Positions 24,054 through 62,289 of a stretch of 64,000 nucleotides of DNA are shown here, piece after piece (positions within the stretch are counted from its first letter, which is position 1; every line of letters starts with the position of its first letter). The stretch is from a virus. Where the stretch lies: the IMG/VR virus record IMGVR_UViG_3300045988_124082. The stretch is one strand, 5' to 3'. The notes under the pieces were generated by a model. The model worked only from the letters and a program-made list of their open reading frames with translations, was not told where the DNA came from and ran no database searches. Both the position numbers and the translations under genes were made by a program.

Positions 24054-24384
24054 CCTAACTGAGTTCGACTCCTCAAGGTTTCCCTATGAGTGCAGACTAT
24101 ATCTTCACCCTTAATAAAAGGGGCTTATTTTTTGGAACCACCAATCGCTTGTGGCCTACTTCCTTACGGAATAGTCGTTGGACTCCATCTTTCGATAAAA
24201 GCTGCTGATTATCCATTAAAAAAGAGCAGGGGATTTAACCTCGCTCTTATACAACCAATTTTTTCAGTTTTCACAACATTCACGCCTATACCATTGCAGG
24301 TATTACGTTGTAGTTTGGTAGTCTTTAGGACTTCCCAGCAATTAAATAAGTATTTTTTCATACAGCTTACACTATACGCAGACT
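24054..24384 (-). mobile_element. ORF-less group I intron in small-terminase-like gene
   Basis: P TTGCTGGGAAGTCC (rc 24328-24341), R TCCAACGACTAT (rc 24171-24182), S GAAGATATAGTCTGC (rc 24092-24106). These closely match the classical R (GUUCAACGACUAGA) and S (AAGAUAUAGUCC) boxes. The 5' boundary is good to about 20 nt. Confidence 0.65.
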
Positions 24385-25386
24385 AATAAGGTTAATCTGT
24401 TTATGACGAGCTTCTTCTGAAATCTCTGCAACCTGGCGCATTCCTTCACAAGTACCAATATCAAAGGTGTTAATTTCTGCCTCTCGGAACCCAATATCTC
24501 GTAAATGCTTTTCTTTCCCGGACAGAGTGAATGCACCTTTGGATTTATTATTGTTATTTGTGATAGAAATACCATTTTCTTTAGCTAATGAGTTAATATT
24601 ATTGACCAGTTTTGAAACTGTTTCAGATAAGTTTTTGACAACAGCATTGTTCTGTACAGCAGTTGTAACATCAATCGTGTACGCATCAATAGCTGCGTTA
24701 AGATTTGTGATCTGAGCTTGTGACTTAACAATTTGGATTGCAGCAATCATCTTCATTGCATCATTCTTAGTTTCTTCATCCAAAAAGTTAACAAGCTGAG
24801 AGTAGAGTAGAGGCATGTCTTTTTCACTTGGGTATTCATCAAATGGATCATACCCAATGATTTTAATGACATCCTTCCTATTTTGTTCATATGCTTCTTT
24901 AAGAGCTTCAGCATCGGTATAAATGGATTCTGTTTTCACCTTCGATACATGAGTCATATCTTTAAAAATATCACTATCACGCCAACGCTTACCATGATAC
25001 TGATTCAAACCAAGACTTGTTAGATAAACACCCCATATAGTTTTATTTTCTTTCTTTTTACCTCTTTCTGGAGGCTTGTTTGCACTGAATACAGCAGTTT
25101 CCCATAAATCTTCATAGAATGGCTTATCTAAATACTCTAAAGCATCTTGAACGCTTTCTCTTGTCTCTCCAAGAAATTCTCCAGCATCAGTTTTTCTACG
25201 AGCAACAGCAGTAGAACAATCTTTACAGATTCTTGTAATACCTGTTAAAACTCTAGGATCTGAACTACTATAGAATTTTGTCTTTGGAAGATCTTTGTTG
25301 CAAAAAGGACAGCGAAATGTTTCTTCTTTTTGCGCTTGTACCTTTTTAGCAGAGGATTGTGTACGGCGCATTGCAGTTTTCGCCAT
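24385..25386 (-). CDS. small-terminase-like packaging protein, 5' exon (zinc-ribbon N-terminus)
   Basis: ORF 24367..25386. CPFCNK..CKDC zinc ribbon. Located directly upstream of terL. Function is positional. Confidence 0.45.
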
Positions 25387-27015: not shown

Positions 27016-27025
27016 TTGGACATAG

Positions 27026-27098
<73 letters not shown>

Positions 27099-27282
27099 AC
27101 AAAAAGAGTACATTGTAACTACCAACAATGTACTCAAATTTAGAAAAGAGGTATAAATTATGATTCCTACAAGAAATCTTAATAGCTTTGTAAATCTTTC
27201 TGAGGTATGAAACAACAATAGAAAAGCGCAATAATCAAAACTTCACAAGAAAGGAGATAATATGATTCCTCAGAAAGATTAA

Positions 27283-27354
27283 CAGGGATAACTGGATTTG
27301 AACCAGTGAATACAGCAGTCAAAGTGCTGTGCCTTACCGCTTGGCGATATCCCT
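27283..27354 (-). tRNA. tRNA-Gln (anticodon TTG)
   Basis: AGGGATA acceptor, CAGCA-CTTTGAC-TGCTG anticodon arm, ACTGG-TTCAAAT-CCAGT T arm. Confidence 0.8.
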
Positions 27355-27967
27355 ATATGTATTTTAATTTTAAAGCAGGTCTTCACCTTACAGTCATTTG
27401 TGGAATAGTTTGTTCTGCAACATAGTAGATAAGTCTGAGCTTTGAGGAGCGACCTCTAACTTCTTACCTAAGTCTAAAAGACCAGTTCTATGACATGATC
27501 AATACATGCAATGTCAACCCGCCATTCAGAATTAAGTTTTATTGTTATATACTCTATTAGCATATATATTCATTTTGAATTTGAACTTACCCTTAACTGA
27601 CTTGAGCGACATACCAGCGACTTTTCTTATACACTGTCTTTTGAACAGCTTCACATCAAACTACATTATTTGGCTTTTCCACCTTTTACGTACCTGCCAG
27701 AGTACGCATTGAAGTGGATTATTCTCCACAGGAGCGTCTATTGTTGTAGCGAAAAGTTCTGTGCGTTAACCAGACCAAAATGCTGCACAATATCCATTTG
27801 CTTGAGAGTTTCTCTCTTGTCCATATCAGATCACTCCGACATAAAAAGAGACACAAAGAACGTATCCGTACAATGTATCTCTCCAATTCGACATATGTGC
27901 CTAGAATATTTCTCGGACTCATGGCATTGAGTTTTATAACCGAGTTGCTTATGTTTTAAAATACAAA

Positions 27968-28039
27968 CACCCTAAGCTGGATTTGAACCAGCACGAACGG
28001 TTTTGGAGACCGTCATTCTACCAACTAAATTATTAGGGC
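27968..28039 (-). tRNA. tRNA-Trp (anticodon CCA)
   Basis: GCCCTAA acceptor (G1-U72 wobble), ACGGT-CTCCAAA-ACCGT anticodon arm, GCTGG-TTCAAAT-CCAGC T arm. Confidence 0.75.
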
Positions 28040-28046
28040 GATATTA

Positions 28047-28120
28047 CTGACATGACAGGACTCGAACCTGCAACACCAACGTCCGTAGCGTTGTGCTCTG
28101 TCCAGTTGAGCTACATGTCA
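28047..28120 (-). tRNA. tRNA-Arg (anticodon ACG)
   Basis: TGACATG acceptor, GCTC/GAGC D stem, CAACG-CTACGGA-CGTTG anticodon arm, TTCGAGT T loop. Confidence 0.75.
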
Positions 28121-28163
28121 TTAAAATTCGACCTCAATCCACATAGGATTTTGAGGTACTTTC

Positions 28164-28249
28164 GTCCCTGTTGAGGGTATCGAACCCACTCGTGACCGAA
28201 GCCATCTGATTTACAGTCAGATCCGCCTCCTTAGCGGGATAAACAGGGA
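28164..28249 (-). tRNA. tRNA-Tyr (anticodon GTA), long variable arm
   Basis: TCTGA-CTGTAAA-TCAGA anticodon arm, GGCTTCGGTC variable arm, TTCGATA T loop. The D arm and T stem are slightly irregular. Confidence 0.6.
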
Positions 28250-28291
28250 TATAAGCCCGTGAGCTCGAAAGACATCACAGGACAACCTAAA

Positions 28292-28377
28292 CGCTGCGAC
28301 AAGGATTCGAACCTTGAGGTCACTAGGACACAATAGTTTTCAAGACTACGCCGTTATAACCATTTCGGTACCGCAGC
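28292..28377 (-). tRNA. tRNA-Ser (anticodon TGA), long variable arm
   Basis: GCTGCGG acceptor, GTAGT-CTTGAAA-ACTAT anticodon arm, CAAGG-TTCGAAT-CCTTG T arm. Confidence 0.75.
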
Positions 28378-28382
28378 AAAAG

Positions 28383-28474
28383 CGTACAGAGTGGGCTACG
28401 ACCCCACGTTACATGTATTCGCATGTAAACCCAATTAGCAGTCGGGCGCCTTAAACCAACTCAGCCATCTGTAC
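28383..28474 (-). tRNA. tRNA-Ser (anticodon GCT), long variable arm
   Basis: GTACAGA/TCTGTAC acceptor, CCCGA-CTGCTAA-TTGGG anticodon arm, 7-bp variable arm TTACATG..CATGTAA. The T loop GTCGTAG is atypical. Confidence 0.65.
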
Positions 28475-51595: not shown

Positions 51596-51607
51596 AGGAG
51601 GATGATT

Positions 51608-52285
51608 ATGAATACAAGTAAAGTTTTAGAATTTTTTGATGCACAGACATTAGTTAAAAAACCAGTTCATGTAATTGGATGTGGAGCAATTGGCTCAAAT
51701 GTCGCAGAACAGCTTACAAGATTAGGAGTCTCAGTGATTCATCTCTGGGATTACGATCATGTTGAGCCTAAAAATGTAACTAATCAGATGTTCTTTGATG
51801 GGGATATCGGAAAAGCTAAGGTAGATGCAATTGAAAATTTGTGTAAGTCAATTAATCCACAGATTAAAATAATCAAACATGAAAGAGGGATTGATGATCC
51901 ATATATTCTTACAGGATATGTATTCTTATGTGTAGATAATATTGAGCTTAGAAAGAAAATCGTAGAGGCCAATAAGTTAAATCCAAACTGTATTGCGTTC
52001 TTTGATTTTAGAATGAGACTTACAGATGCACAGCATTATTTTGCTGATTGTTCAGTTAAAGAACAGGTTGAAAACTTAATTGGAACCATGAATTTTACCC
52101 ATGAAGAAGCGGCTGCAGCAACTCCTACAAGTGCTTGTGGAGTGGAATTAAGTGTATGCTATACAGTTAAGAATATTGTTTGTTATGGAATTGCAAATTT
52201 TGTTAACTTTTGCCTAGGGAATGAACCAAAACAGATGATTATTACAGATATGAAGACAATGGATGTGACAGTATTCCCTATGTAA
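51608..52285 (+). CDS. ThiF/MoeB/E1-like adenylyltransferase (minimal, about 225 aa)
   Basis: VHVIGCGAIGSNVAEQLTRLGV (GxGxxG Rossmann) followed by LWDYDHVEPKNVTNQMF (DxDxVxxxNxxRQ-like). Confidence 0.7.
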   Translation: MNTSKVLEFFDAQTLVKKPVHVIGCGAIGSNVAEQLTRLGVSVIHLWDYDHVEPKNVTNQMFFDGDIGKAKVDAIENLCKSINPQIKIIKHERGIDDPYILTGYVFLCVDNIELRKKIVEANKLNPNCIAFFDFRMRLTDAQHYFADCSVKEQVENLIGTMNFTHEEAAAATPTSACGVELSVCYTVKNIVCYGIANFVNFCLGNEPKQMIITDMKTMDVTVFPM

Positions 52286-54053: not shown

Positions 54054-54323
54054 ATGATAGACGCAAAAGATATTAAAGAGGGTATGAAAATTAAGTATAA
54101 TGGTTGGGAATGGACTATAACAAAAGTGTTTGCAAAATATAATAATGTCTTGGATCTTCGGAATGATTGTATTAAAAAAATCATTGATCAAGATAGTTCA
54201 TTGATTTGGATTGAAGCATCGAAGAGACGCTTTGTGCCTGAATCTATGACTATGGAGTGGTTCTTTAAAGAACTGAAATATGGAACAATAAAGATTTTAA
54301 ATCGTAAAAATAATTATTATTGA
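54054..54323 (+). CDS. C-tail-tagged small protein 19 (family D)
   Basis: DIKEGMKIKYNGWEWTITK. Ends ..NRKNNYY*. Confidence 0.7.
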   Translation: MIDAKDIKEGMKIKYNGWEWTITKVFAKYNNVLDLRNDCIKKIIDQDSSLIWIEASKRRFVPESMTMEWFFKELKYGTIKILNRKNNYY

Positions 54324-54329
54324 GGTGAT

Positions 54330-54623
54330 GTGATGTATTTAGAAGACATTAAAGTTGGTCAGAAAGTGAACTATCGAGGTCATTCCTACATAATAACTAA
54401 AAATGTTGTAAAGTATCGGGGAATAATTAGACCTTATTATTCTACATATTCGTATATCAAGGAAAGTACAAATTGTCATAGATCACGAATGTATTTTCGA
54501 AGAGTAGAAAATAAAAATGAACCGATTGATGGATTTTGGTTATTATATGACGAGATTGAAGAAAAAATGGATCGAGGGCTTATTAAATTTTTGAACATGT
54601 CAAAGAAAAATAATTATTATTAA
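54330..54623 (+). CDS. C-tail-tagged small protein 20 (family D)
   Basis: DIKVGQKVNYRGHSYIITK. Ends ..SKKNNYY*. Its stop is 15 nt before the RT start. Confidence 0.7.
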   Translation: MMYLEDIKVGQKVNYRGHSYIITKNVVKYRGIIRPYYSTYSYIKESTNCHRSRMYFRRVENKNEPIDGFWLLYDEIEEKMDRGLIKFLNMSKKNNYY

Positions 54624-54638
54624 AGGGGGTGCCACAAA

Positions 54639-55940
54639 GTGAATGGAATCAATAAAAGGAAATTAGAACTGTTTATGGATGATCAGCTATGGAGACAAAA
54701 TATTACACATCAGCAAAGCAAAGGTGTACATAGAGATGTATTAAGAATTGTGTGTGATCCAGAATACAAAGCACGGCTTTTAGGAATGATCTGGGATGGT
54801 AATTACAAAATTGCACCTCCGTATGTAGTAGAAATTCCTAAAGACAATGGAAAAGTAAGAGAAGTGTATGTTAATCAGCCAATTGACAGATTTGTTATGA
54901 CACAAATCAATTATGTTTATATGCAATTATATGGTCATATGATTCATCCAAGATGTGTGTCTTATCAGAAAGGAATTGGAGTTAAAAATATCGTAGATGA
55001 TATTTGTATGGAGCTTAAGAAACATCAAGGAGCTGTCGGGTATAAGGTAGACATTAGTAAGTATTTTGACAGTGTAAGCCGTGAGGTCCTTAATGAAATG
55101 ATTGATAAAATTGATACAGGAAGTCCTATTGATCAGATCGTAAGAGATTATTATATGGATGATTGTATCATTGATCAGAAAGGAAATGTTATTGAGAAAT
55201 ACAAAAGTATGACTCAGGGTTGTGCAGTGTCTACATTCTTTGCCAATTGTGTTTTAAAAGATGTTGATGAAGAGTTAAGCAAGATGGATATTATTTATTA
55301 CAGATATTCAGATGATATCTTGATGGTTGGTAAGGATGCAGATAAGGCTTTGAAGATGTTGGGAGAAATGTTAGAAACGAAAGGACTTACATTAAATCCT
55401 AAAAAGGTAGAAACAGTCAGTACAGATCAATGGTTTACATTCTTAGGAGTGCGAATTAATGGACAGAAAAGAAGTTTTTCTGAGAAGAGCTTAAAGGAAT
55501 TTCAGAAACATATTAGAGAATATGTAAATAAGAAAGCAGGAATTGGTAGCGTAAAAGTTGCAATCAGACAAATTAATAAATATCTGTATTTGAATTTCTT
55601 AAGGAATCCTAATGAGTTTGGTTGGGCTGAGTATTTCTTTAGTATTGTGAATGTCGAAGATGATATTAAGACATTAGATATGTGGATTAAAGATACACTC
55701 AGAGGTTTGTATACTGGTAAGAGAGGAAAAGAACAGATAGGTGGACTAGGTGTAAATAAAGTAACTAATGAATGTGGAGTATTAAGAGGGAAGGGCAACA
55801 AAGTAAGTTCAAATTTACGTAAAACAAGAAGTGATAAAGACATTTTAGAAGAAGCAGGATATATCAGTATGAATGAAATGTATCATCAGTTTAGATATAG
55901 CAAAGAATTGTACAGGGCTTCATTGACGGCTTTATCTTAA
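54639..55940 (+). CDS. reverse transcriptase (stand-alone, no endonuclease or maturase domain recognised)
   Basis: RT motifs in order: IPKDNGKVREV, YKVDISKYFDSV, QGCAVSTFFANCVL, YYRYSDDILMVG (YxDD), LTLNPKKVE, FTFLGVRI. GTG start behind GGGGGTG. Confidence 0.85.
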   Translation: MNGINKRKLELFMDDQLWRQNITHQQSKGVHRDVLRIVCDPEYKARLLGMIWDGNYKIAPPYVVEIPKDNGKVREVYVNQPIDRFVMTQINYVYMQLYGHMIHPRCVSYQKGIGVKNIVDDICMELKKHQGAVGYKVDISKYFDSVSREVLNEMIDKIDTGSPIDQIVRDYYMDDCIIDQKGNVIEKYKSMTQGCAVSTFFANCVLKDVDEELSKMDIIYYRYSDDILMVGKDADKALKMLGEMLETKGLTLNPKKVETVSTDQWFTFLGVRINGQKRSFSEKSLKEFQKHIREYVNKKAGIGSVKVAIRQINKYLYLNFLRNPNEFGWAEYFFSIVNVEDDIKTLDMWIKDTLRGLYTGKRGKEQIGGLGVNKVTNECGVLRGKGNKVSSNLRKTRSDKDILEEAGYISMNEMYHQFRYSKELYRASLTALS

Positions 55941-56459
55941 GTGTAACCTAACACGAGGTACTTATGTGAAATGTTATAAGTCAAATCAGATCCCTAGGAT
56001 ACACGGGTGATTCCATGCATGGTTGATAACCAGCATTCCATCAACCCGTTCCTCCCTGGATCTTATCATCATAAAGGAAATTTAGAAACGTGTTATTAAC
56101 ATGAACATAAGAAAGTTACTATGGACGTTGTATGTGAGACAATGGAATTACATATAAGGCGCGTTGAAGCTGCAGGATGACTGGCAATACATTGACCAAG
56201 TCATCCCTGCAGCTCAACCGCTTTATAATCATAAAAGAATAAAGGAACATAGCATGATTGTGAGCATACAAACAAGCTAACATGGGCTAAACATACGAGA
56301 CGTTGAATCATACATAATAAGGGCACAGCTGCCTTATGCAGCGGGAAATTAGTCTCCTCGACAATAATTTCACCGCTGCCACAGGCGTGCGTGCCCTTAT
56401 TAATCATAAACCAATAGAGAAAACATGTCGCCAATGTAGAGTATGTAGAAAGGAAAATC
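55941..56459 (+). ncRNA. hairpin array 1: three long variable hairpins, each followed by conserved ATCATAAA
   Basis: Hairpins at 55988-56063, 56153-56227 and 56317-56400 (75-84 nt, imperfect, unrelated sequences). ATCATAAA at 56068, 56228 and 56403. RNA status and strand are inferred, not shown. Confidence 0.45.
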
Positions 56460-56996
56460 ATGAAAAGTTTATTTAAAGTATTGTATGAGCTGTCACAAGG
56501 AAACACCTTAATGATTAATAGTTGCATGTCTTTTAGAATGACAACTGATCTATACAAAAGACAAGTGAGATTTAAGAAGTATAAGGTTGTTGATCAAGGA
56601 AGCGTAGTAAGTGATGTGACATTGTGTAGTGGAGAGGTTATTGAGTATGATGACTTAATAAAGGAAGGAGATTTAGATTTTATATTACCAATTGAATTAA
56701 ACGAAAAAGAAAATCCATATGAGGTTATTGAATACCTGTATGGATTATTTTATTGTTCAGTTCCTGATAGATCTGCTGTTCAAAAGAAACAGAATTTTAT
56801 AGCAAAAGGATTAAATGATTTTGGGGCAAATGATTTTACAGGAATGAGAAGAAGTGAAATTCAGCCATTGTTAGAACTCTATGTGTTACTCGCTGGAATG
56901 AAAGGATGGATCACTTGGAAAGATGATAAGTTGTTCTTTTGGAAAGGTGAGCATAAGAGTTTGTATATATATAGAAAATGGATTTTAGGTTATTAG
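56460..56996 (+). CDS. hypothetical protein
   Basis: 178-aa ORF with RBS AGAAAGGAAAA. No motif recognised. Confidence 0.55.
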   Translation: MKSLFKVLYELSQGNTLMINSCMSFRMTTDLYKRQVRFKKYKVVDQGSVVSDVTLCSGEVIEYDDLIKEGDLDFILPIELNEKENPYEVIEYLYGLFYCSVPDRSAVQKKQNFIAKGLNDFGANDFTGMRRSEIQPLLELYVLLAGMKGWITWKDDKLFFWKGEHKSLYIYRKWILGY

Positions 56997-57013
56997 GAAA
57001 GGAAGAACGTAAA

Positions 57014-57775
57014 ATGAATGTAGAAAAGAGTTTGGAAAAAGCAGGAGTAGACACAAAGAAATATCCTTCATTAGCTATGCAGAATATTTTAGGATATCAA
57101 GGGAAAGCGTTTGCAGAAAATTCATACCTGTATAGAAAGATCATGGGAGATGGGCATGTGTTTAATCCTTATATACACAGAAGATGGCTTCCATATCAGT
57201 TTATGAATGCTGTCCATTGGACAAGACAGTATTATGCAGAGACTATTGGTTATGTAAAGATGCTTGAAAAAGAATTGATGCGTGGCAATAATGTAGATAA
57301 TTGGAAATATATGTACGATAAATTTGGAAAAGAGCTTAATGCTTTATATACACTCTCAAAAAGAGATAAAAAAGCGTATAAAGAAAGATGGGCTGCTTTT
57401 GGAAGATTAGAAATTTTGAAATATTTCTCTCAAGGGTTTGATTGTGTAGGGATAAATCAAAATACATTTTTGGAAATGAAAAATTTATTAGCGGATGAAA
57501 GATTTGAAGCTGAACGATATTGGCGATATCCTAATTGTTTATTGTATAAACGGCCACAATTTAGAAAAGATTTGGTAACAACAACTTTCCATTCAGGAAT
57601 TTATTTTACATTAAAACATATTATGATGTTTGATTATGAAAAATTACATATGTCTTCATCCCAAAAAGAAAGCCTAAAACGGATTAGAGAAGATTTAATT
57701 AACGGAGATTTCAATTATGAGCAGGCTTTTACAATTATTGAAGATTACGTAGCAAGATATTACAATCCAAGATAG
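57014..57775 (+). CDS. hypothetical protein
   Basis: Start moved to MNVEKSLEK behind AGGAAAGGAAG. 253 aa, Trp/Tyr-rich. Confidence 0.55.
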   Translation: MNVEKSLEKAGVDTKKYPSLAMQNILGYQGKAFAENSYLYRKIMGDGHVFNPYIHRRWLPYQFMNAVHWTRQYYAETIGYVKMLEKELMRGNNVDNWKYMYDKFGKELNALYTLSKRDKKAYKERWAAFGRLEILKYFSQGFDCVGINQNTFLEMKNLLADERFEAERYWRYPNCLLYKRPQFRKDLVTTTFHSGIYFTLKHIMMFDYEKLHMSSSQKESLKRIREDLINGDFNYEQAFTIIEDYVARYYNPR

Positions 57776-57788
57776 AGAGGGGAATTAT

Positions 57789-58286
57789 ATGCCAGAAGAA
57801 GTAAAAGAATTAACTATTAAAGAAGCAGATGAGTTTATTAAAAAGAAAGTAATCGGAGTTCTCATAAAAGCAGATGTAACAATCATAGTAAATGAATTAG
57901 AAGCTATTTATGGAGATTCGTTAGCAAATGGAACGGTTGGAGATTCGTTTTATATTTATAACTGTCCAGAAAATTATGATGAATCAGATTATGAAGAGCT
58001 TGAGTATATTGATTATGATGATATGTATGAAGATGATATTCGTGAAGAGAGAGCTGAAGCAGGAGATTTTAATCTTAAAGTATATAAGTGGTTCATTGTT
58101 GATCCAAGATTTACAGAATTATTAAAAGATTTGGGCGAGATAGTTGCTCCAGATATTAACCTTTGGGGATGTTGTGAAGACATTGAAGACGCAAGCGAAG
58201 CAACTGTAATTGAAGAATTTTTTGAAAGAATGCAGATTCTGTATGGACAAAAGAATGCAATTATTACAGAAAAGCTGAGTGCTTAA
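57789..58286 (+). CDS. highly acidic protein (DNA-mimic / anti-restriction candidate)
   Basis: 165 aa with ..NYDESDYEELEYIDYDDMYEDDIREERAEAGDF.. Composition only. Confidence 0.35.
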   Translation: MPEEVKELTIKEADEFIKKKVIGVLIKADVTIIVNELEAIYGDSLANGTVGDSFYIYNCPENYDESDYEELEYIDYDDMYEDDIREERAEAGDFNLKVYKWFIVDPRFTELLKDLGEIVAPDINLWGCCEDIEDASEATVIEEFFERMQILYGQKNAIITEKLSA

Positions 58287-58742
58287 ACCAACAAAAGGGA
58301 GATGTACCCTTTGTAGAAATACTTATCATAAACCATCGAAGAAGGAGGATCTTCAGAACCCTCCGCATTGATTACGTTAAACATCACTTCGTAATGATTT
58401 AACAGCATCAACTGCGAGAGGAGTTCATGAAGATCCTCCTTCTTGAATCATAAATACATAGAGGAATACATCAAAGATAAGTTGTTCTACATTTTTTGCA
58501 AGAGATATACTTGCTGATTTAATGAATTGTGTTTGAATCACTCACATAATCGGGAGAAAGGAGGCATAATCTCATCTCCTCCACTGGCAAGCCAGGGAGG
58601 ACTTGATGAGATTACATTCCGCTGCGGCGTCATTGTGCCTCCATTCTCCTGATCATGTTTGATCATAAACCAATAGAGAAATATATCACCTCACAATGAG
58701 TTAAATCTGTAACTATTAATTTACATAGAAAAGGAGAAACAG
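58287..58742 (+). ncRNA. hairpin array 2: one short and two very long hairpins, each followed within ~12 nt by ATCATAAA
   Basis: Hairpins at 58294-58312, 58336-58446 (111 nt) and 58549-58653 (105 nt). ATCATAAA at 58325, 58447 and 58662. The last motif, GATCATAAACCAATAGAGAAA, nearly repeats 56402-56422. Confidence 0.45.
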
Positions 58743-59397: not shown

Positions 59398-60192
59398 ATG
59401 GCAACAGAGTTTGACAAACGAATGAAAGCTTATGAATGTGTCTCAAGACAGTACTTAACAAGAAGAGTACCAGTTGCAATTAGGGTAGATGGAAAGGCAT
59501 TTCATACATTCACTAGAGGGTTTCAGAAACCATTTGATGAAGTGCTTAGCAACACAATGCAAGCCACAATGATGAAAATGTGTAGACAGATTCAGGGTTG
59601 TGTGTTTGCTTACACACAGAGTGATGAAATTACATTTATTCTTATCGATTATCAGAAGCTAAATTCTGATGGCTGGTTTAACTACCGTACTGATAAGATG
59701 TGTAGCATTGCAGCGAGTATGGCTACTATGGAGTTCAATAAGGCTTTTAGTGCTTTTGTTTATGGATTTAAGGTAAACAAGGGAGAAGACATATCAAGCG
59801 AAGATATGGAAGTGCTTAAGGCCTATGAGAAATCTAAGGAACGTGGAGCTATGTTTGATGCTAGAGCGTTCTCAATTCCAAAAGAAGAAGTCACAAACTT
59901 AATCTATTGGAGACAACAGGATGCTATGAGAAATGCAGTTCAGATGGTTGGACAAGCATTTTATTCTCACAAAGAACTTCAGGGTGTTAATTGTGAAATG
60001 CTTAAAGAAATGTTACTGGCTGATAAGGGAATTGAATGGGATAAGATTCCTGTGAAATACCAGAGAGGCAGTTGTTGTGTCAAGGTTGATGGTGAATGGA
60101 CTATTGACAATAACATTTCTATCTTCAGAGGTAGTGACAGAGAGCAAATTGATAAGCTTGTGTTTGTTGAGAGTGAAGAGGATCAGGAGTGA
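59398..60192 (+). CDS. Thg1-like protein (tRNA-His guanylyltransferase family, 3'-5' nucleotidyl polymerase)
   Basis: N-terminal VPVAIRVDGKAFHTFTRGFQKPFDEVLSNTM..CVFAYTQSDEITFIL matches the Thg1 family core (R.DG+.F..FT..F.KP.D...YxQSDEIS). Confidence 0.75.
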   Translation: MATEFDKRMKAYECVSRQYLTRRVPVAIRVDGKAFHTFTRGFQKPFDEVLSNTMQATMMKMCRQIQGCVFAYTQSDEITFILIDYQKLNSDGWFNYRTDKMCSIAASMATMEFNKAFSAFVYGFKVNKGEDISSEDMEVLKAYEKSKERGAMFDARAFSIPKEEVTNLIYWRQQDAMRNAVQMVGQAFYSHKELQGVNCEMLKEMLLADKGIEWDKIPVKYQRGSCCVKVDGEWTIDNNISIFRGSDREQIDKLVFVESEEDQE

Positions 60193-62139: not shown

Positions 62140-62289
62140 GGGGACATAGCTTAATAGGTAAAGCAAAACTACATTCTTCCATAAAGAACTTAAAACTAAA
62201 ATTTTCATATTAAATATAAACATTTTGTACCTCCCTATTGTAATAAAATAACACTTATATTTATGTGGGTTCGAATCCCACTGTCCCCA
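62140..62289 (+). ncRNA. interrupted tRNA-like gene (canonical acceptor, D and T arms; about 75-nt AT-rich insert in place of the anticodon region)
   Basis: GGGGACA..TGTCCCC-A acceptor, GCTT-AATAGGTA-AAGC D arm, GTGGG-TTCGAAT-CCCAC T arm. The only anticodon-like hairpin is TTCT-TCCATAA-AGAA (CAT, with C33) at 62174-62188. Confidence 0.4.

What the first reader, a model, noticed from the sequence alone, without database searches (positions are those of the whole stretch)
55941..56459. Three tandem long hairpin units, each followed by ATCATAAA, immediately downstream of the RT stop
The hairpins at 55988-56063, 56153-56227 and 56317-56400 are 75-84 nt, imperfect (bulges and internal loops) and unrelated in sequence. 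Each is preceded by an ..ACATA(A/T)AAGG-like lead and followed by (T)ATCATAAA, then an A/G-rich stretch (GGAAAT, AGAATAAAGGAAC, CCAATAGAGAAAAC). Conserved flanks with variable self-complementary cores is not how terminators, CRISPR arrays or simple REP elements look. It is closer to arrays of small structured RNA genes, or to msd-like templates. The ATCATAAA element includes -10-like hexamers (TATAAT, TATCAT, TAATCA). One reading is therefore three short transcription units, each ending in the next hairpin.
Basis: seen in the sequence. Interest (0 to 1): 0.8.

Follow-up and report, generated by a model that had tools for sequence, protein, structure and literature searches.

The report
Phage reverse-transcriptase hairpin RNA array
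The three hairpins are real and are the structured non-coding RNA already predicted to accompany the phage reverse transcriptase family UG27; they are repeated modules, each apparently an RNA scaffold holding a hairpin template that the enzyme probably copies into hairpin DNA of unknown use.

Summary
Three long imperfect hairpins lie at 55988-56063, 56153-56227 and 56315-56402, each followed by ATCATAAA, directly after an RT gene. The RT is a UG27-group enzyme (PADLOC E 1e-164). The next two genes are its known partners, RTas346 and RTas337. Mestre et al. 2022 (PMC9226505) already predicted, in this intergenic region of UG27 phages, "a putative conserved ncRNA with three long stem-loops". The element is therefore already known as a prediction.

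- Two more units lie at 58312-58707.
- Every unit has one architecture: an outer two-part helix P1, a variable hairpin P2, and a 3' junction AUCRUAAA-N3-AURAAG.
- Unit number runs from 1 to about 10 in relatives, including the cultured Bacteroides phage BS-TP1.
- P1 pairs specifically within its own unit (p=2e-10) and is more stable in the + sense.
- P2 is more stable in the minus sense, and its mismatches are biased to A.C on the + strand (33 vs 10).

This fits a + sense RNA scaffold and a minus-sense cDNA hairpin product, as in retrons.

The reading as three promoter-to-terminator transcription units is not supported. The biological role is unknown.

The parts
54639..55940 (+). Reverse transcriptase gene (433 aa), UG27 group of UG/Abi RTs
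   Evidence: PADLOC RT_UG27 E 1.3e-164, full-length match. Pfam RVT_1 E 5.6e-21. 1124 homologues at E<=1e-20.
55946..55959 (+). Small leader stem-loop, ACCU-AACACG-AGGU, right after the RT stop
   Evidence: The same loop (RRCRCR) sits on different stems in relatives: UACCU/AGGUG, GGUU/GACC, GCUC/GAGU. 15 such stem-loops occur in the arrays against 2.2 in shuffles.
55961..56111 (+). Unit 1. P1 5' strand 55961-55976 (CUUAUG-UGAAA-UGUUA); P2 hairpin 55988-56063; 3' junction starting AUCAUAAA at 56068; P1 3' strand 56097-56111 (UAACA-UGAA-CAUAAG)
   Evidence: The MFE of the whole unit gives this architecture. P2 z = -4.3. Coordinates.
56130..56269 (+). Unit 2. P1 5' strand 56130-56143 (GUAUG-UGAGA-CAAU); P2 56153-56227; AUCAUAAA 56228-56235; P1 3' strand 56257-56269 (AUUG-UGAG-CAUAC)
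   Evidence: (z = -9.1). The base of the stem is replaced with compensation in L004.
56291..56446 (+). Unit 3. P1 5' strand 56291-56305 (ACAUAC-GAGA-CGUUG); P2 56315-56402; AUCAUAAA 56403-56410; P1 3' strand 56432-56446 (CAAUG-UAGA-GUAUGU)
   Evidence: (z = -8.9). A G-C to A-U double change occurs in relatives.
56460..56996 (+). Accessory gene, 178 aa, cluster 346 (RTas346)
   Evidence: PADLOC RTas346 E 6.3e-14. No Pfam, PHROG or PDB match. The AF2 model is unusable, pLDDT 39.
56978..57775 (+). Accessory gene, 265 aa, cluster 337 (RTas337)
   Evidence: PADLOC RTas337 E 2.4e-10. Invariant motif DG.VFNPY.HRRWLP.Q. All-helical AF2 model, pLDDT 76, with no Foldseek PDB match at E<1.
57789..58286 (+). 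Third small ORF (165 aa) between the accessory genes and the second array; unknown
   Evidence: Syntenic ORFs of 149-167 aa in L080, L081 and L083. No family or PDB match.
58312..58491 (+). Unit 4 (second array). P1 5' strand 58312-58327; P2 58339-58444; AUCAUAAA 58447-58454; P1 3' strand 58476-58491
   Evidence: P2 dG -56.2, z = -10.7. Architecture, coordinates.
58516..58707 (+). Unit 5 (second array). P1 5' strand 58516-58531 (GAUUUAA-UGA-AUUGUG); P2 58544-58658; AUCAUAAA 58662-58669; P1 3' strand 58692-58707 (CACAAU-GAG-UUAAAUC)
   Evidence: z = -8.7. The 3' tail ATCATAAACCAATAGAGAAA is identical to that of unit 3.

Best explanation
This is the non-coding RNA component of a phage UG27 reverse-transcriptase system: RT, then array A, then RTas346, RTas337 and a small ORF, then array B.

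The arrays are transcribed in the + sense as part of the operon.

Each 140-190-nt unit folds into four parts:
- an outer two-part helix P1 with a GA-rich internal loop;
- a short 5' junction;
- a long, fast-evolving hairpin P2;
- a conserved 29-33-nt 3' junction beginning AUCRUAAA-N3-AURAAG.

P1 and the junction are the RNA scaffold that the RT recognises. P2 is the template, which the RT copies into a minus-sense single-stranded DNA hairpin. The logic is that of a retron (a1/a2 helix plus msd hairpin), but the units are multiplied in tandem and carried by a phage.

Shown here: the identity of the system, the unit architecture, its conservation, and the opposite strand preferences of P1 and P2.
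Inferred: transcription in the + sense, cDNA synthesis from P2, and the roles of P1 and the junction.
Unknown: the primer, and what the DNA hairpins do for the phage. Counter-defence is the leading guess.
For: Identity.
- RT_UG27 E 1e-164, with RTas346 and RTas337 next to it.
- The literature predicted an ncRNA with three long stem-loops in exactly this spacer.

Structure.
- All five P2 hairpins have z from -4.3 to -10.7.
- All five units give the same P1-P2 MFE architecture.
- The 5' and 3' flanks of a unit pair with each other at -17.8 kcal/mol, against -10.7 for non-cognate flanks of the same locus. Wilcoxon p=2e-10, and 26 of 36 cognate pairs beat every non-cognate pair.

Conservation.
- The same units occur with unrelated P2 sequences in relatives of 36-84% RT identity.
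- Copy number varies: 3+2, 2+2, 2+1, 1+1, 4, 8, about 10, and 8 in the cultured phage BS-TP1.
- The linker length is constant at about 85-95 nt.
- The junction consensus is ATCRTAAA-NNN-AT-R-AAG.
- Among close relatives, nucleotide diversity is 0.069 in P2 columns, 0.023 in the linkers and 0.042 in the RT gene. Changes in P2 are compensated.

Strand.
- P1 is 2.7 kcal/mol more stable in the + sense (p=1.3e-4).
- P2 is 3.6 kcal/mol more stable in the minus sense (p=3.7e-5).
- In a strand-symmetric count over 98 dereplicated hairpins from 31 loci, single mismatches are A.C 33 against G.U 10 on the + strand (p=6e-4). The wobble-tolerant molecule is therefore the complement, which is what a cDNA would be.

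Context and literature.
- All neighbouring genes are on the + strand.
- A 2026 preprint that I could not open mentions UG27 74 times, and uses 'UG27 ncRNA', 'cDNA hairpin' and 'DNA hairpin'. The last phrase I infer to be in its abstract, from term counts.
Against: - There are no expression, 5'-end or cDNA data here.
- The strand asymmetry of P2 could come from a strand-specific mutation bias or from an antisense RNA rather than from a cDNA.
- The P1 asymmetry rests on duplex energies from flexible windows.
- One large UG27 clade (L035 type, RT_UG27 E 3e-208) has no array within 3 kb on either side of the RT. Adjacency is therefore not universal.
- No primer (branching G, protein or 3'-OH) could be identified.
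- Covariation among the closest relatives alone is weak: 3 pairs with double changes.
- The content of the preprint is inferred from word counts only.
Confidence: 0.6

Rival explanations
1. The units are functional RNAs only. They would be scaffolds, regulators or decoys bound by the RT and its partners, or long double-stranded RNA substrates. The RT would make something else (for example untemplated or short-templated DNA, as in AbiK or DRT9), and P2 would not be copied.
For: P1 and the conserved junction behave as + sense RNA features. By HMM score the RT's nearest groups include Drt9/UG28 and UG17, and relatives of that kind do not copy a long template (my own knowledge). No priming site was found.
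Against: P2 mismatches favour the minus-sense molecule, which an RNA-only function in the + sense does not explain. P2 evolves fast while keeping only its pairing, as retron msd templates do. The unread preprint uses 'cDNA hairpin' in a paper centred on UG27.
Confidence: 0.2
2. Each unit is an antisense transcription unit. The reverse complement of ATCATA (TATGAT) would be a -10 box with a -35-like hexamer 16-17 nt upstream, driving a minus-strand hairpin RNA.
For: Sigma-70-like matches on the minus strand, with -10 = TATGAT, occur for 4 of the 5 window units. P2 is more stable in the minus sense.
Against: Promoter-like hits are not enriched in the region (25 found, 26.9 expected). In GC-rich relatives the supposed -35 is poor and the spacing is 15 nt (read from the sequences). 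The most conserved positions after ATCRTAAA (AT-R-AAG) would fall in the promoter spacer. Transcription would start inside the P2 stem. P1 prefers the + sense. The unit sits in a + strand operon.
Confidence: 0.07
3. These are ordinary mRNA elements of the operon (RNase III processing sites, stabilisers or terminators) and are unrelated to the RT.
For: Long imperfect intergenic hairpins serve as RNase III sites in phage T7 early mRNA (my own knowledge). The arrays lie between genes.
Against: Such hairpins occur only at the RT locus in 64 kb. They follow UG27 RTs in phages of 34-56% G+C. Up to 10 units stand in tandem with no gene between them. There are no T-runs. The outer helix and junction motif are conserved.
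Confidence: 0.05
4. These are DNA-level elements: recombination sites of the integron attC kind, iterons of a replication origin, or a CRISPR-like array.
For: Conserved flanks with a variable, imperfectly palindromic core resemble attC sites. Copy number varies between relatives.
Against: No integrase or cas gene is nearby. No cassette ORFs lie between units: the gaps are 18-24 nt. Units are 140-190 nt with a nested outer helix. P1 and P2 show opposite single-strand preferences, which double-stranded DNA sites would not show. P2 has no matches elsewhere in the window.
Confidence: 0.03

Closest known systems
UG27 system ncRNA (Mestre et al. 2022, Nucleic Acids Res 50:6084, PMC9226505)
   Same: The same RT group, the same partner genes (clusters 346 and 337), the same gut-phage setting and the same place (spacer between the RT and the next gene). 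It is described as 'a putative conserved ncRNA with three long stem-loops' and is not validated experimentally.
   Different: Nothing essential; this locus is an instance of it. The main text that I could read describes a three-stem-loop ncRNA. It does not mention a repeated P1-P2 module, variable copy number (1 to about 10), a second array after the accessory genes, the AUCRUAAA-N3-AURAAG junction, or the strand asymmetry. Its supplementary figure and a 2026 preprint that treats UG27 at length could not be read.
Retron msr-msd ncRNA
   Same: An RT is paired with a structured ncRNA. A closing helix (a1/a2, here P1) encloses a long hairpin of conserved shape but free sequence (msd, here P2), which is copied into single-stranded hairpin DNA. 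The scaffold works as RNA and the product as DNA. The retron facts come from my own knowledge; the P1/P2 results come.
   Different: The RT is not a retron RT: the best retron model scores E 9e-17 against 1e-164 for UG27. The ncRNA lies downstream of the RT, not upstream. Several units stand in tandem and in two arrays. The long conserved single-stranded junction is on the 3' side of the hairpin. No branching G or 2'-5' linkage is shown. The system is phage-borne, not a host defence.
DRT2 (UG2) and DRT9 (UG28) RT-ncRNA defence systems
   Same: They are Class 2 UG/Abi RTs without extra domains that depend on a dedicated structured ncRNA as template (for the class and the ncRNAs; the mechanisms are my own knowledge).
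   Different: DRT2 makes concatemeric cDNA by rolling-circle copying, which creates an ORF. Here, unit lengths are a multiple of three in only 6 of 21 cases, and flanking ATCA repeats occur in only 21 of 37. DRT9 makes poly-dA. Both have one ncRNA upstream of the RT and are bacterial defences. UG27 shows no defence-island enrichment.
Integron attC arrays and CRISPR arrays
   Same: Tandem modules with conserved borders, variable cores and variable copy number.
   Different: There is no integrase or cas gene, no cassettes, and no short identical repeats. The units are folded single-strand modules tied to an RT.

Membership tests
UG27 RT system (UG/Abi Class 2) | RT matching the UG27 profile | tested here: met
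   PADLOC RT_UG27 E 1.3e-164, residues 5-431 on profile positions 2-419 of 420. The next best is UG26 at 9e-52.
UG27 RT system (UG/Abi Class 2) | Associated genes of clusters 346 and 337 downstream | tested here: met
   RTas346 E 6.3e-14 (56460-56996) and RTas337 E 2.4e-10 (56978-57775).
UG27 RT system (UG/Abi Class 2) | Structured non-coding spacer with long stem-loops between the RT and cluster 346 | tested here: met
   519-nt spacer, z = -7.7, with three P2 hairpins. The same is seen in relatives and in BS-TP1.
UG27 RT system (UG/Abi Class 2) | Encoded in a tailed phage genome | tested here: met
   The closest contigs are IMG/VR viral genomes of 70-134 kb. A tRNA cluster, a ROOL RNA and a group I intron lie in the window. 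A cultured relative is Bacteroides phage BS-TP1.
Retron | RT of the retron clade | tested here: not met
   The best retron profile (RT_Ec107-like) scores E 8.7e-17, far below UG27. PDB retron RTs score E 8e-5 or worse, except two chains named 'Retron-type RT' at about 1e-17.
Retron | ncRNA with a closing inverted repeat (a1/a2) around a long msd hairpin | tested here: met
   An analogous outer helix P1 encloses P2 in all five units. Cognate against non-cognate flanks: p=2e-10.
Retron | Branched msDNA primed from the 2'-OH of a conserved G | not testable with these tools
   This needs biochemistry. A G follows the P1a 5' strand in U1-U3, which is only suggestive.
Diversity-generating retroelement (DGR) | Template repeat with a near-identical variable repeat in a target gene, differing at adenines | tested here: not met
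   No hairpin matches any other part of the window beyond 10-13 nt. Stem mismatches are not restricted to adenines of one arm.
DRT2-type rolling-circle template | Template flanked by short direct repeats, whose concatemer is an open reading frame | tested here: not met
   Flanking ATCA in 21 of 37 units. Unit length is a multiple of three in 6 of 21. Open concatemer frames are only sporadic.
Intrinsic terminators | Short G+C-rich stem followed by a T-run | tested here: not met
   The stems have 28-45 bp and are followed by ATCATAAA. The scan finds no terminator at any unit.
CRISPR array | Short near-identical direct repeats separated by unstructured spacers, with cas genes | tested here: not met
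   The conserved part is an approximately 87-nt linker of low identity (A3, mean column identity 37%). The variable parts are hairpins. There are no cas genes.

The most novel reading that the evidence does not exclude
UG27 phages carry expandable arrays (1 to about 10 units, in two blocks) of retron-like modules. In each module a conserved RNA scaffold presents a different, rapidly diversifying hairpin template. Infection would then produce a repertoire of single-stranded DNA hairpins that work against host immunity, as decoys or inhibitors. New units would arise by duplication and turnover in an arms race. The modular reading, the second array and the opposite strand preferences of scaffold and template may not yet be in print.
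Probability: 0.3. Interest if true: 0.8.

Novelty: already known. Interest (0 to 1): 0.45.

Why it matters
UG27 is the one large UG/Abi RT group that lives in phages rather than in bacterial defence islands. It is found in more than a thousand human-gut phage genomes, and its function has been open since 2022.

If the arrays are multi-copy templates for hairpin DNA, this would be a phage use of retron-like chemistry. It would also be a natural system that makes several defined single-stranded DNAs from one operon, which is of interest for counter-defence biology and for in-cell ssDNA production.

Two results here make the question directly testable:
- the unit model, with P1 plus junction as scaffold and P2 as exchangeable cargo;
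- a cultured phage-host pair that carries a canonical system: BS-TP1 on Bacteroides salyersiae BG8, whose RT is annotated as 'tail protein' and is followed by a 1349-nt unannotated gap.

Tried and rejected
- **Rfam.** At gathering thresholds there is nothing in the region. At E-value thresholds there are only spurious miRNA and snoRNA hits.
- **tRNA scan.** No tRNA in the region.
- **DNA similarity to deposited phages.** No blastn match for 54600-56500.
- **DRT2-like concatemer ORF.** Rejected.
- **DGR-like template and target pair, or any target of the hairpins within the window.** None found.
- **Restriction-site decoy idea.** GATC is 2.4-fold enriched in the hairpins, but GATC is not avoided in the genome, and the ranking of palindromes mirrors the genome. 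Not supported.
- **Consensus fold of the linkers by MAFFT and RNAalifold.** Zero pairs, because the alignment was poor. I replaced it with the cognate against non-cognate duplex test.
- **Function of the accessory proteins.**
  - No Pfam, PHROG or PDB sequence match.
  - Only 4 and 12 homologues were found.
  - The AF2 model of 346 is unusable (pLDDT 39).
  - The AF2 model of 337 (pLDDT 76, all-helical) has no Foldseek PDB hit.
- **The 2026 preprint that treats UG27 at length.** It could not be opened under either DOI form. Only term counts were obtained.
- **Supplementary files of Mestre et al.** Not held.
- **Small stem-loop strand test.** Too few cases to decide: 13 with Watson-Crick pairs only, 17 when G.U is allowed on the + strand, 12 when it is allowed on the minus strand.
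Full report
**1. The observation**

The window between the stop of ORF 54639-55940 and the start of ORF 56460-56996 is 519 nt of non-coding sequence. It folds far better than shuffled sequence: -164.6 kcal/mol, z = -7.7.

Three long imperfect hairpins account for this. They lie at 55988-56063, 56153-56227 and 56315-56402.
- Energies are -30.4, -44.5 and -50.7 kcal/mol.
- z-scores are -4.3, -9.1 and -8.9, and no shuffle folded as well.
- Each is followed within 0-4 nt by ATCATAAA, at 56068, 56228 and 56403.
- Their cores share no similarity with each other.

Two details need changing.
- The 'ACATA(A/T)AAGG lead' is seen only at units 2 and 3, and it is the junction plus the base of the stem.
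- The third hairpin is slightly longer than stated.

**2. What the neighbouring genes are**

The ORF before the hairpins is a reverse transcriptase of the UG27 group.
- PADLOC RT_UG27 scores E 1.3e-164 over the full length, and the next group, UG26, scores 9e-52.
- Pfam RVT_1 scores E 5.6e-21.

The two ORFs after the hairpins match RTas346 (E 6e-14) and RTas337 (E 2e-10), the profiles of the two gene clusters known to accompany UG27 RTs.

The setting is a phage genome.
- The window holds seven tRNA genes, a ROOL RNA and a group I intron.
- Its closest relatives are IMG/VR viral contigs of 70-134 kb.

**3. What is already published**

Mestre et al. 2022 (PMC9226505) defined the UG27 system as RT plus clusters 346 and 337.
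- They found it in 1447 dereplicated, mostly human-gut, phage genomes.
- They found no defence-island enrichment.

The finding is this element.

A bioRxiv preprint of 24 Sep 2026 ('Coevolutionary mining of prokaryotic non-coding elements with a genome language model') could not be opened. Term counts show the following:
- UG27 is mentioned 74 times, 'UG27 ncRNA' 11 times, 'cDNA' 24 times and 'hairpin' 33 times.
- 'cDNA hairpin' appears twice.
- 'DNA hairpin' appears once, and by inference from the counts that is in the abstract.

I take this only as a hint that cDNA hairpins from UG27 ncRNA have been proposed or shown there.

**4. The element is larger and more regular than described**

A scan of the whole window finds dense long hairpins only at the RT locus. 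It also reveals a fourth and a fifth.
- They lie in the next long intergenic gap, 58287-58742, after the third small ORF: 58339-58444 and 58544-58658.
- Each is followed by ATCATAAA.
- Their z-scores are -10.7 and -8.7.

Of the 19 ATCRTAAA matches in 64 kb, only these five have an adjacent dense hairpin.

Folding each complete unit gives the same architecture five times (coordinates):
- an outer helix in two parts, P1a and P1b, separated by a small GA-rich internal loop (UGARA on one side; UGAR, UAGA or GAG on the other);
- a 9-12-nt 5' junction;
- the long hairpin P2;
- a 29-33-nt 3' junction that begins AUCAUAAA-N3-AUARAG;
- the returning strands of P1.

The units span 55961-56111, 56130-56269, 56291-56446, 58312-58491 and 58516-58707. 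The gaps between them are 18-24 nt.

**5. Relatives**

I collected 79 UG27 loci from IMG/VR, five contigs of intermediate relatives with 84, 69 and 63% RT identity, and one cultured phage.

The units recur, but the P2 sequences are almost all unrelated, even at 84% RT identity. Copy number also differs:

| Locus | Units |
|---|---|
| Window | 3+2 |
| L080 | 2+2 |
| L081 | 2+1 |
| L083 | 1+1, plus one further unit |
| L012 | 4 |
| L014 | 8, plus at least 1 |
| L018 | about 10 |

Other regularities:
- The distance from the junction motif to the next P2 is constant at about 85-95 nt across clades of 34-56% G+C.
- The junction consensus over 36 units is ATCRTAAA-NNN-AT-R-AAG.
- Other clades carry variants, such as ATATGTAAA or TAAAGCCATG, with the same period of about 155-185 nt.

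Bacteroides phage BS-TP1 (PQ571274.1; host B. salyersiae BG8) carries a canonical system.
- gp79 is RT_UG27 (E 4e-228), although it is annotated as 'tail protein'.
- gp80 is RTas346 and gp82 is RTas337.
- A 1349-nt unannotated gap holds eight tandem structures of 120-160 nt with the same layout and a junction AUCGA-N5-6-UAAAG.

A small stem-loop with the loop RRCRCR on varying stems marks the leader or the inter-unit spacers. It occurs 15 times against 2.2 in shuffles.

One clade (L035 type) has a bona fide UG27 RT but no array within 3 kb.

**6. Evidence that the structure is selected**

- Among eleven close relatives, nucleotide diversity is 0.069 in P2 columns, 0.023 in the rest of the spacer and 0.042 in the RT gene. 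The linkers are more constrained than the protein-coding sequence, and the hairpins are less constrained.
- 97.4% of pair cells stay paired, and some changes are compensated, but this set is too similar for strong covariation: 3 pairs with double changes, score 0.031 against 0.023, reached by 2 of 500 shuffles.
- The stronger test is P1. The 5' and 3' flanks of a unit form a duplex of -17.8 kcal/mol on average. Flanks of different units of the same locus give -10.7. Wilcoxon p=2e-10, and 26 of 36 cognate pairs beat every non-cognate pair.
- P1 sequences differ from unit to unit while their geometry is fixed: the 5' strand ends about 8 nt before P2, and the 3' strand starts about 29 nt after it.

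**7. Which strand is the folded molecule?**

Watson-Crick stacks are the same on both strands, so any difference comes from wobble pairs and mismatches.

P2 favours the minus sense.
- The reverse complement is more stable by 3.55 kcal/mol on average (37 units, p=3.7e-5). It holds 53 G.U pairs against 30.
- I also made a strand-symmetric count: a fold with Watson-Crick pairs only, scoring single mismatches, over 98 dereplicated hairpins from 31 loci. It gives 33 A.C against 10 G.U on the + strand (p=6e-4).
- The molecule in which these positions can wobble is therefore the minus-sense one.

P1 shows the opposite. The + sense duplex is more stable by 2.66 kcal/mol (p=1.3e-4), with 61 G.U pairs against 47.

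All genes around the arrays are on the + strand.

The simplest reading is a + sense RNA whose scaffold (P1) works as RNA, and whose cargo (P2) matters as its complement, the product an RT would make. As minus-sense DNA, the five P2 sequences still fold with z from -4.6 to -9.8.

**8. Mechanism proposed**

Shown:
- a UG27 system;
- modular P1-P2 units;
- a conserved 3' junction;
- fast P2 turnover;
- opposite strand preferences.

Inferred:
- The operon transcript carries the arrays.
- The RT, perhaps with 346 and 337, recognises P1 plus the AUCRUAAA-N3-AURAAG junction.
- It starts DNA synthesis 3' of P2 and copies P2 into a minus-sense single-stranded DNA hairpin, one per unit.

Unknown:
- the primer;
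- the ends of the product;
- whether units are first cut apart;
- what the hairpin DNAs do.

Because the system is phage-borne and absent from defence islands, counter-defence is the leading guess. Nothing here tests it.

**9. Rivals**

- **RNA-only function.** This remains possible, because P1 and the junction behave as RNA and no priming site was found. It does not explain the P2 asymmetry.
- **Antisense promoters.**
  - In favour: TATGAT with a -35-like hexamer 16-17 nt upstream occurs at four of five units.
  - Against: such hits are not enriched (25 against 26.9 expected). The spacing and the -35 fail in GC-rich relatives. The best-conserved positions would fall in the promoter spacer. 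P1 prefers the + sense.
- **Terminators or RNase III sites unrelated to the RT.** These are contradicted by the exclusive association with UG27 loci, by tandem runs of up to ten units with no genes between them, and by the absence of T-runs.
- **DNA-level sites (attC-like, iterons, CRISPR-like).** There is no integrase or cas gene and no cassettes, and double-stranded sites would show no single-strand preferences.
- **A DRT2-like rolling-circle gene or a DGR-like template and target pair.** Both were tested and not found.

**10. Comparison and verdict**

It works like a retron: a closing helix around a free-sequence hairpin template, with an RNA scaffold and a DNA product. It is not a retron by RT phylogeny. 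It also differs in gene order, in having tandem and dual arrays, and in its host.

It is a member of the UG27 system by all four features tested.

As a finding it is already known as a computational prediction. The modular unit model, the second array, the copy-number variation, the junction consensus and the scaffold-versus-cargo strand asymmetry go beyond the main text of the 2022 paper that I could read. I could not check them against its supplement or against the 2026 preprint.

The function of the accessory proteins stayed opaque.

Noticed in passing
window 27357-27968 (-), with tRNA genes at 27025-28474 (-): A full-length ROOL RNA (Rfam RF03087, 305 bits) sits inside a cluster of seven tRNA genes: Thr, Gln, Trp, Arg, Tyr and two Ser.
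   Followed up: no
window 24072-24404 (-): Group I catalytic intron (RF00028, 62.5 bits against a gathering score of 50). The interrupted gene was not identified.
   Followed up: no
window 62140-62289 (+): An Rfam tRNA match (43.7 bits) covers the whole 71-position model but spans 150 nt. ARAGORN did not call it. It may be a tRNA gene with a long insertion or intron.
   Followed up: no
window 59398-60192 (+): A Thg1-like gene (3'-5' nucleotidyltransferase; Pfam Thg1 E 9e-32) lies two genes after the second hairpin array. It is also present in L080 but absent at that place in L081 and L083, so it is not a core part of the system.
   Followed up: partly
window 51602-52285 (+): A ThiF-family (E1-like) gene (E 1e-21) lies upstream of the RT, separated from it by a run of small ORFs. 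It is syntenic in L080-L084.
   Followed up: no
whole window; the single site is at about 56160-56163: CGCG is avoided to an extreme degree: 1 observed against 62 expected. GCGC (0.23), CTAG (0.42), CCGG (0.44) and ACGT (0.45) are also depleted. The only CGCG of the 64 kb lies in the 5' arm of hairpin unit 2.
   Followed up: partly
L085 (PQ571274.1, 79351-80613 and 80614-81962): In the cultured Bacteroides phage BS-TP1, the UG27 RT (gp79) is annotated as 'tail protein'. The 1349-nt array of eight structured units after it is unannotated.
   Followed up: yes
L035-L049 and similar loci (IMG/VR): A large clade of genuine UG27 RTs (RT_UG27 E 3e-208) has a 120-aa ORF starting 2 nt after the RT stop, and no dense hairpins within 3 kb on either side. 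Where its ncRNA lies, if it has one, is unknown.
   Followed up: partly
window 54301-54308 (+): An ATCGTAAA match lies just upstream of the RT start, inside the end of ORF 54054-54323, and is conserved in close relatives. It has no adjacent dense hairpin (dG/nt -0.22) and is probably chance.
   Followed up: partly
window 56978-57775 (+), protein residues about 58-75: The cluster 337 proteins share an invariant motif, DG.VFNPY.HRRWLP.Q, within a poorly predicted N-terminal part. The rest is a confident all-helical fold with no PDB neighbour.
   Followed up: partly
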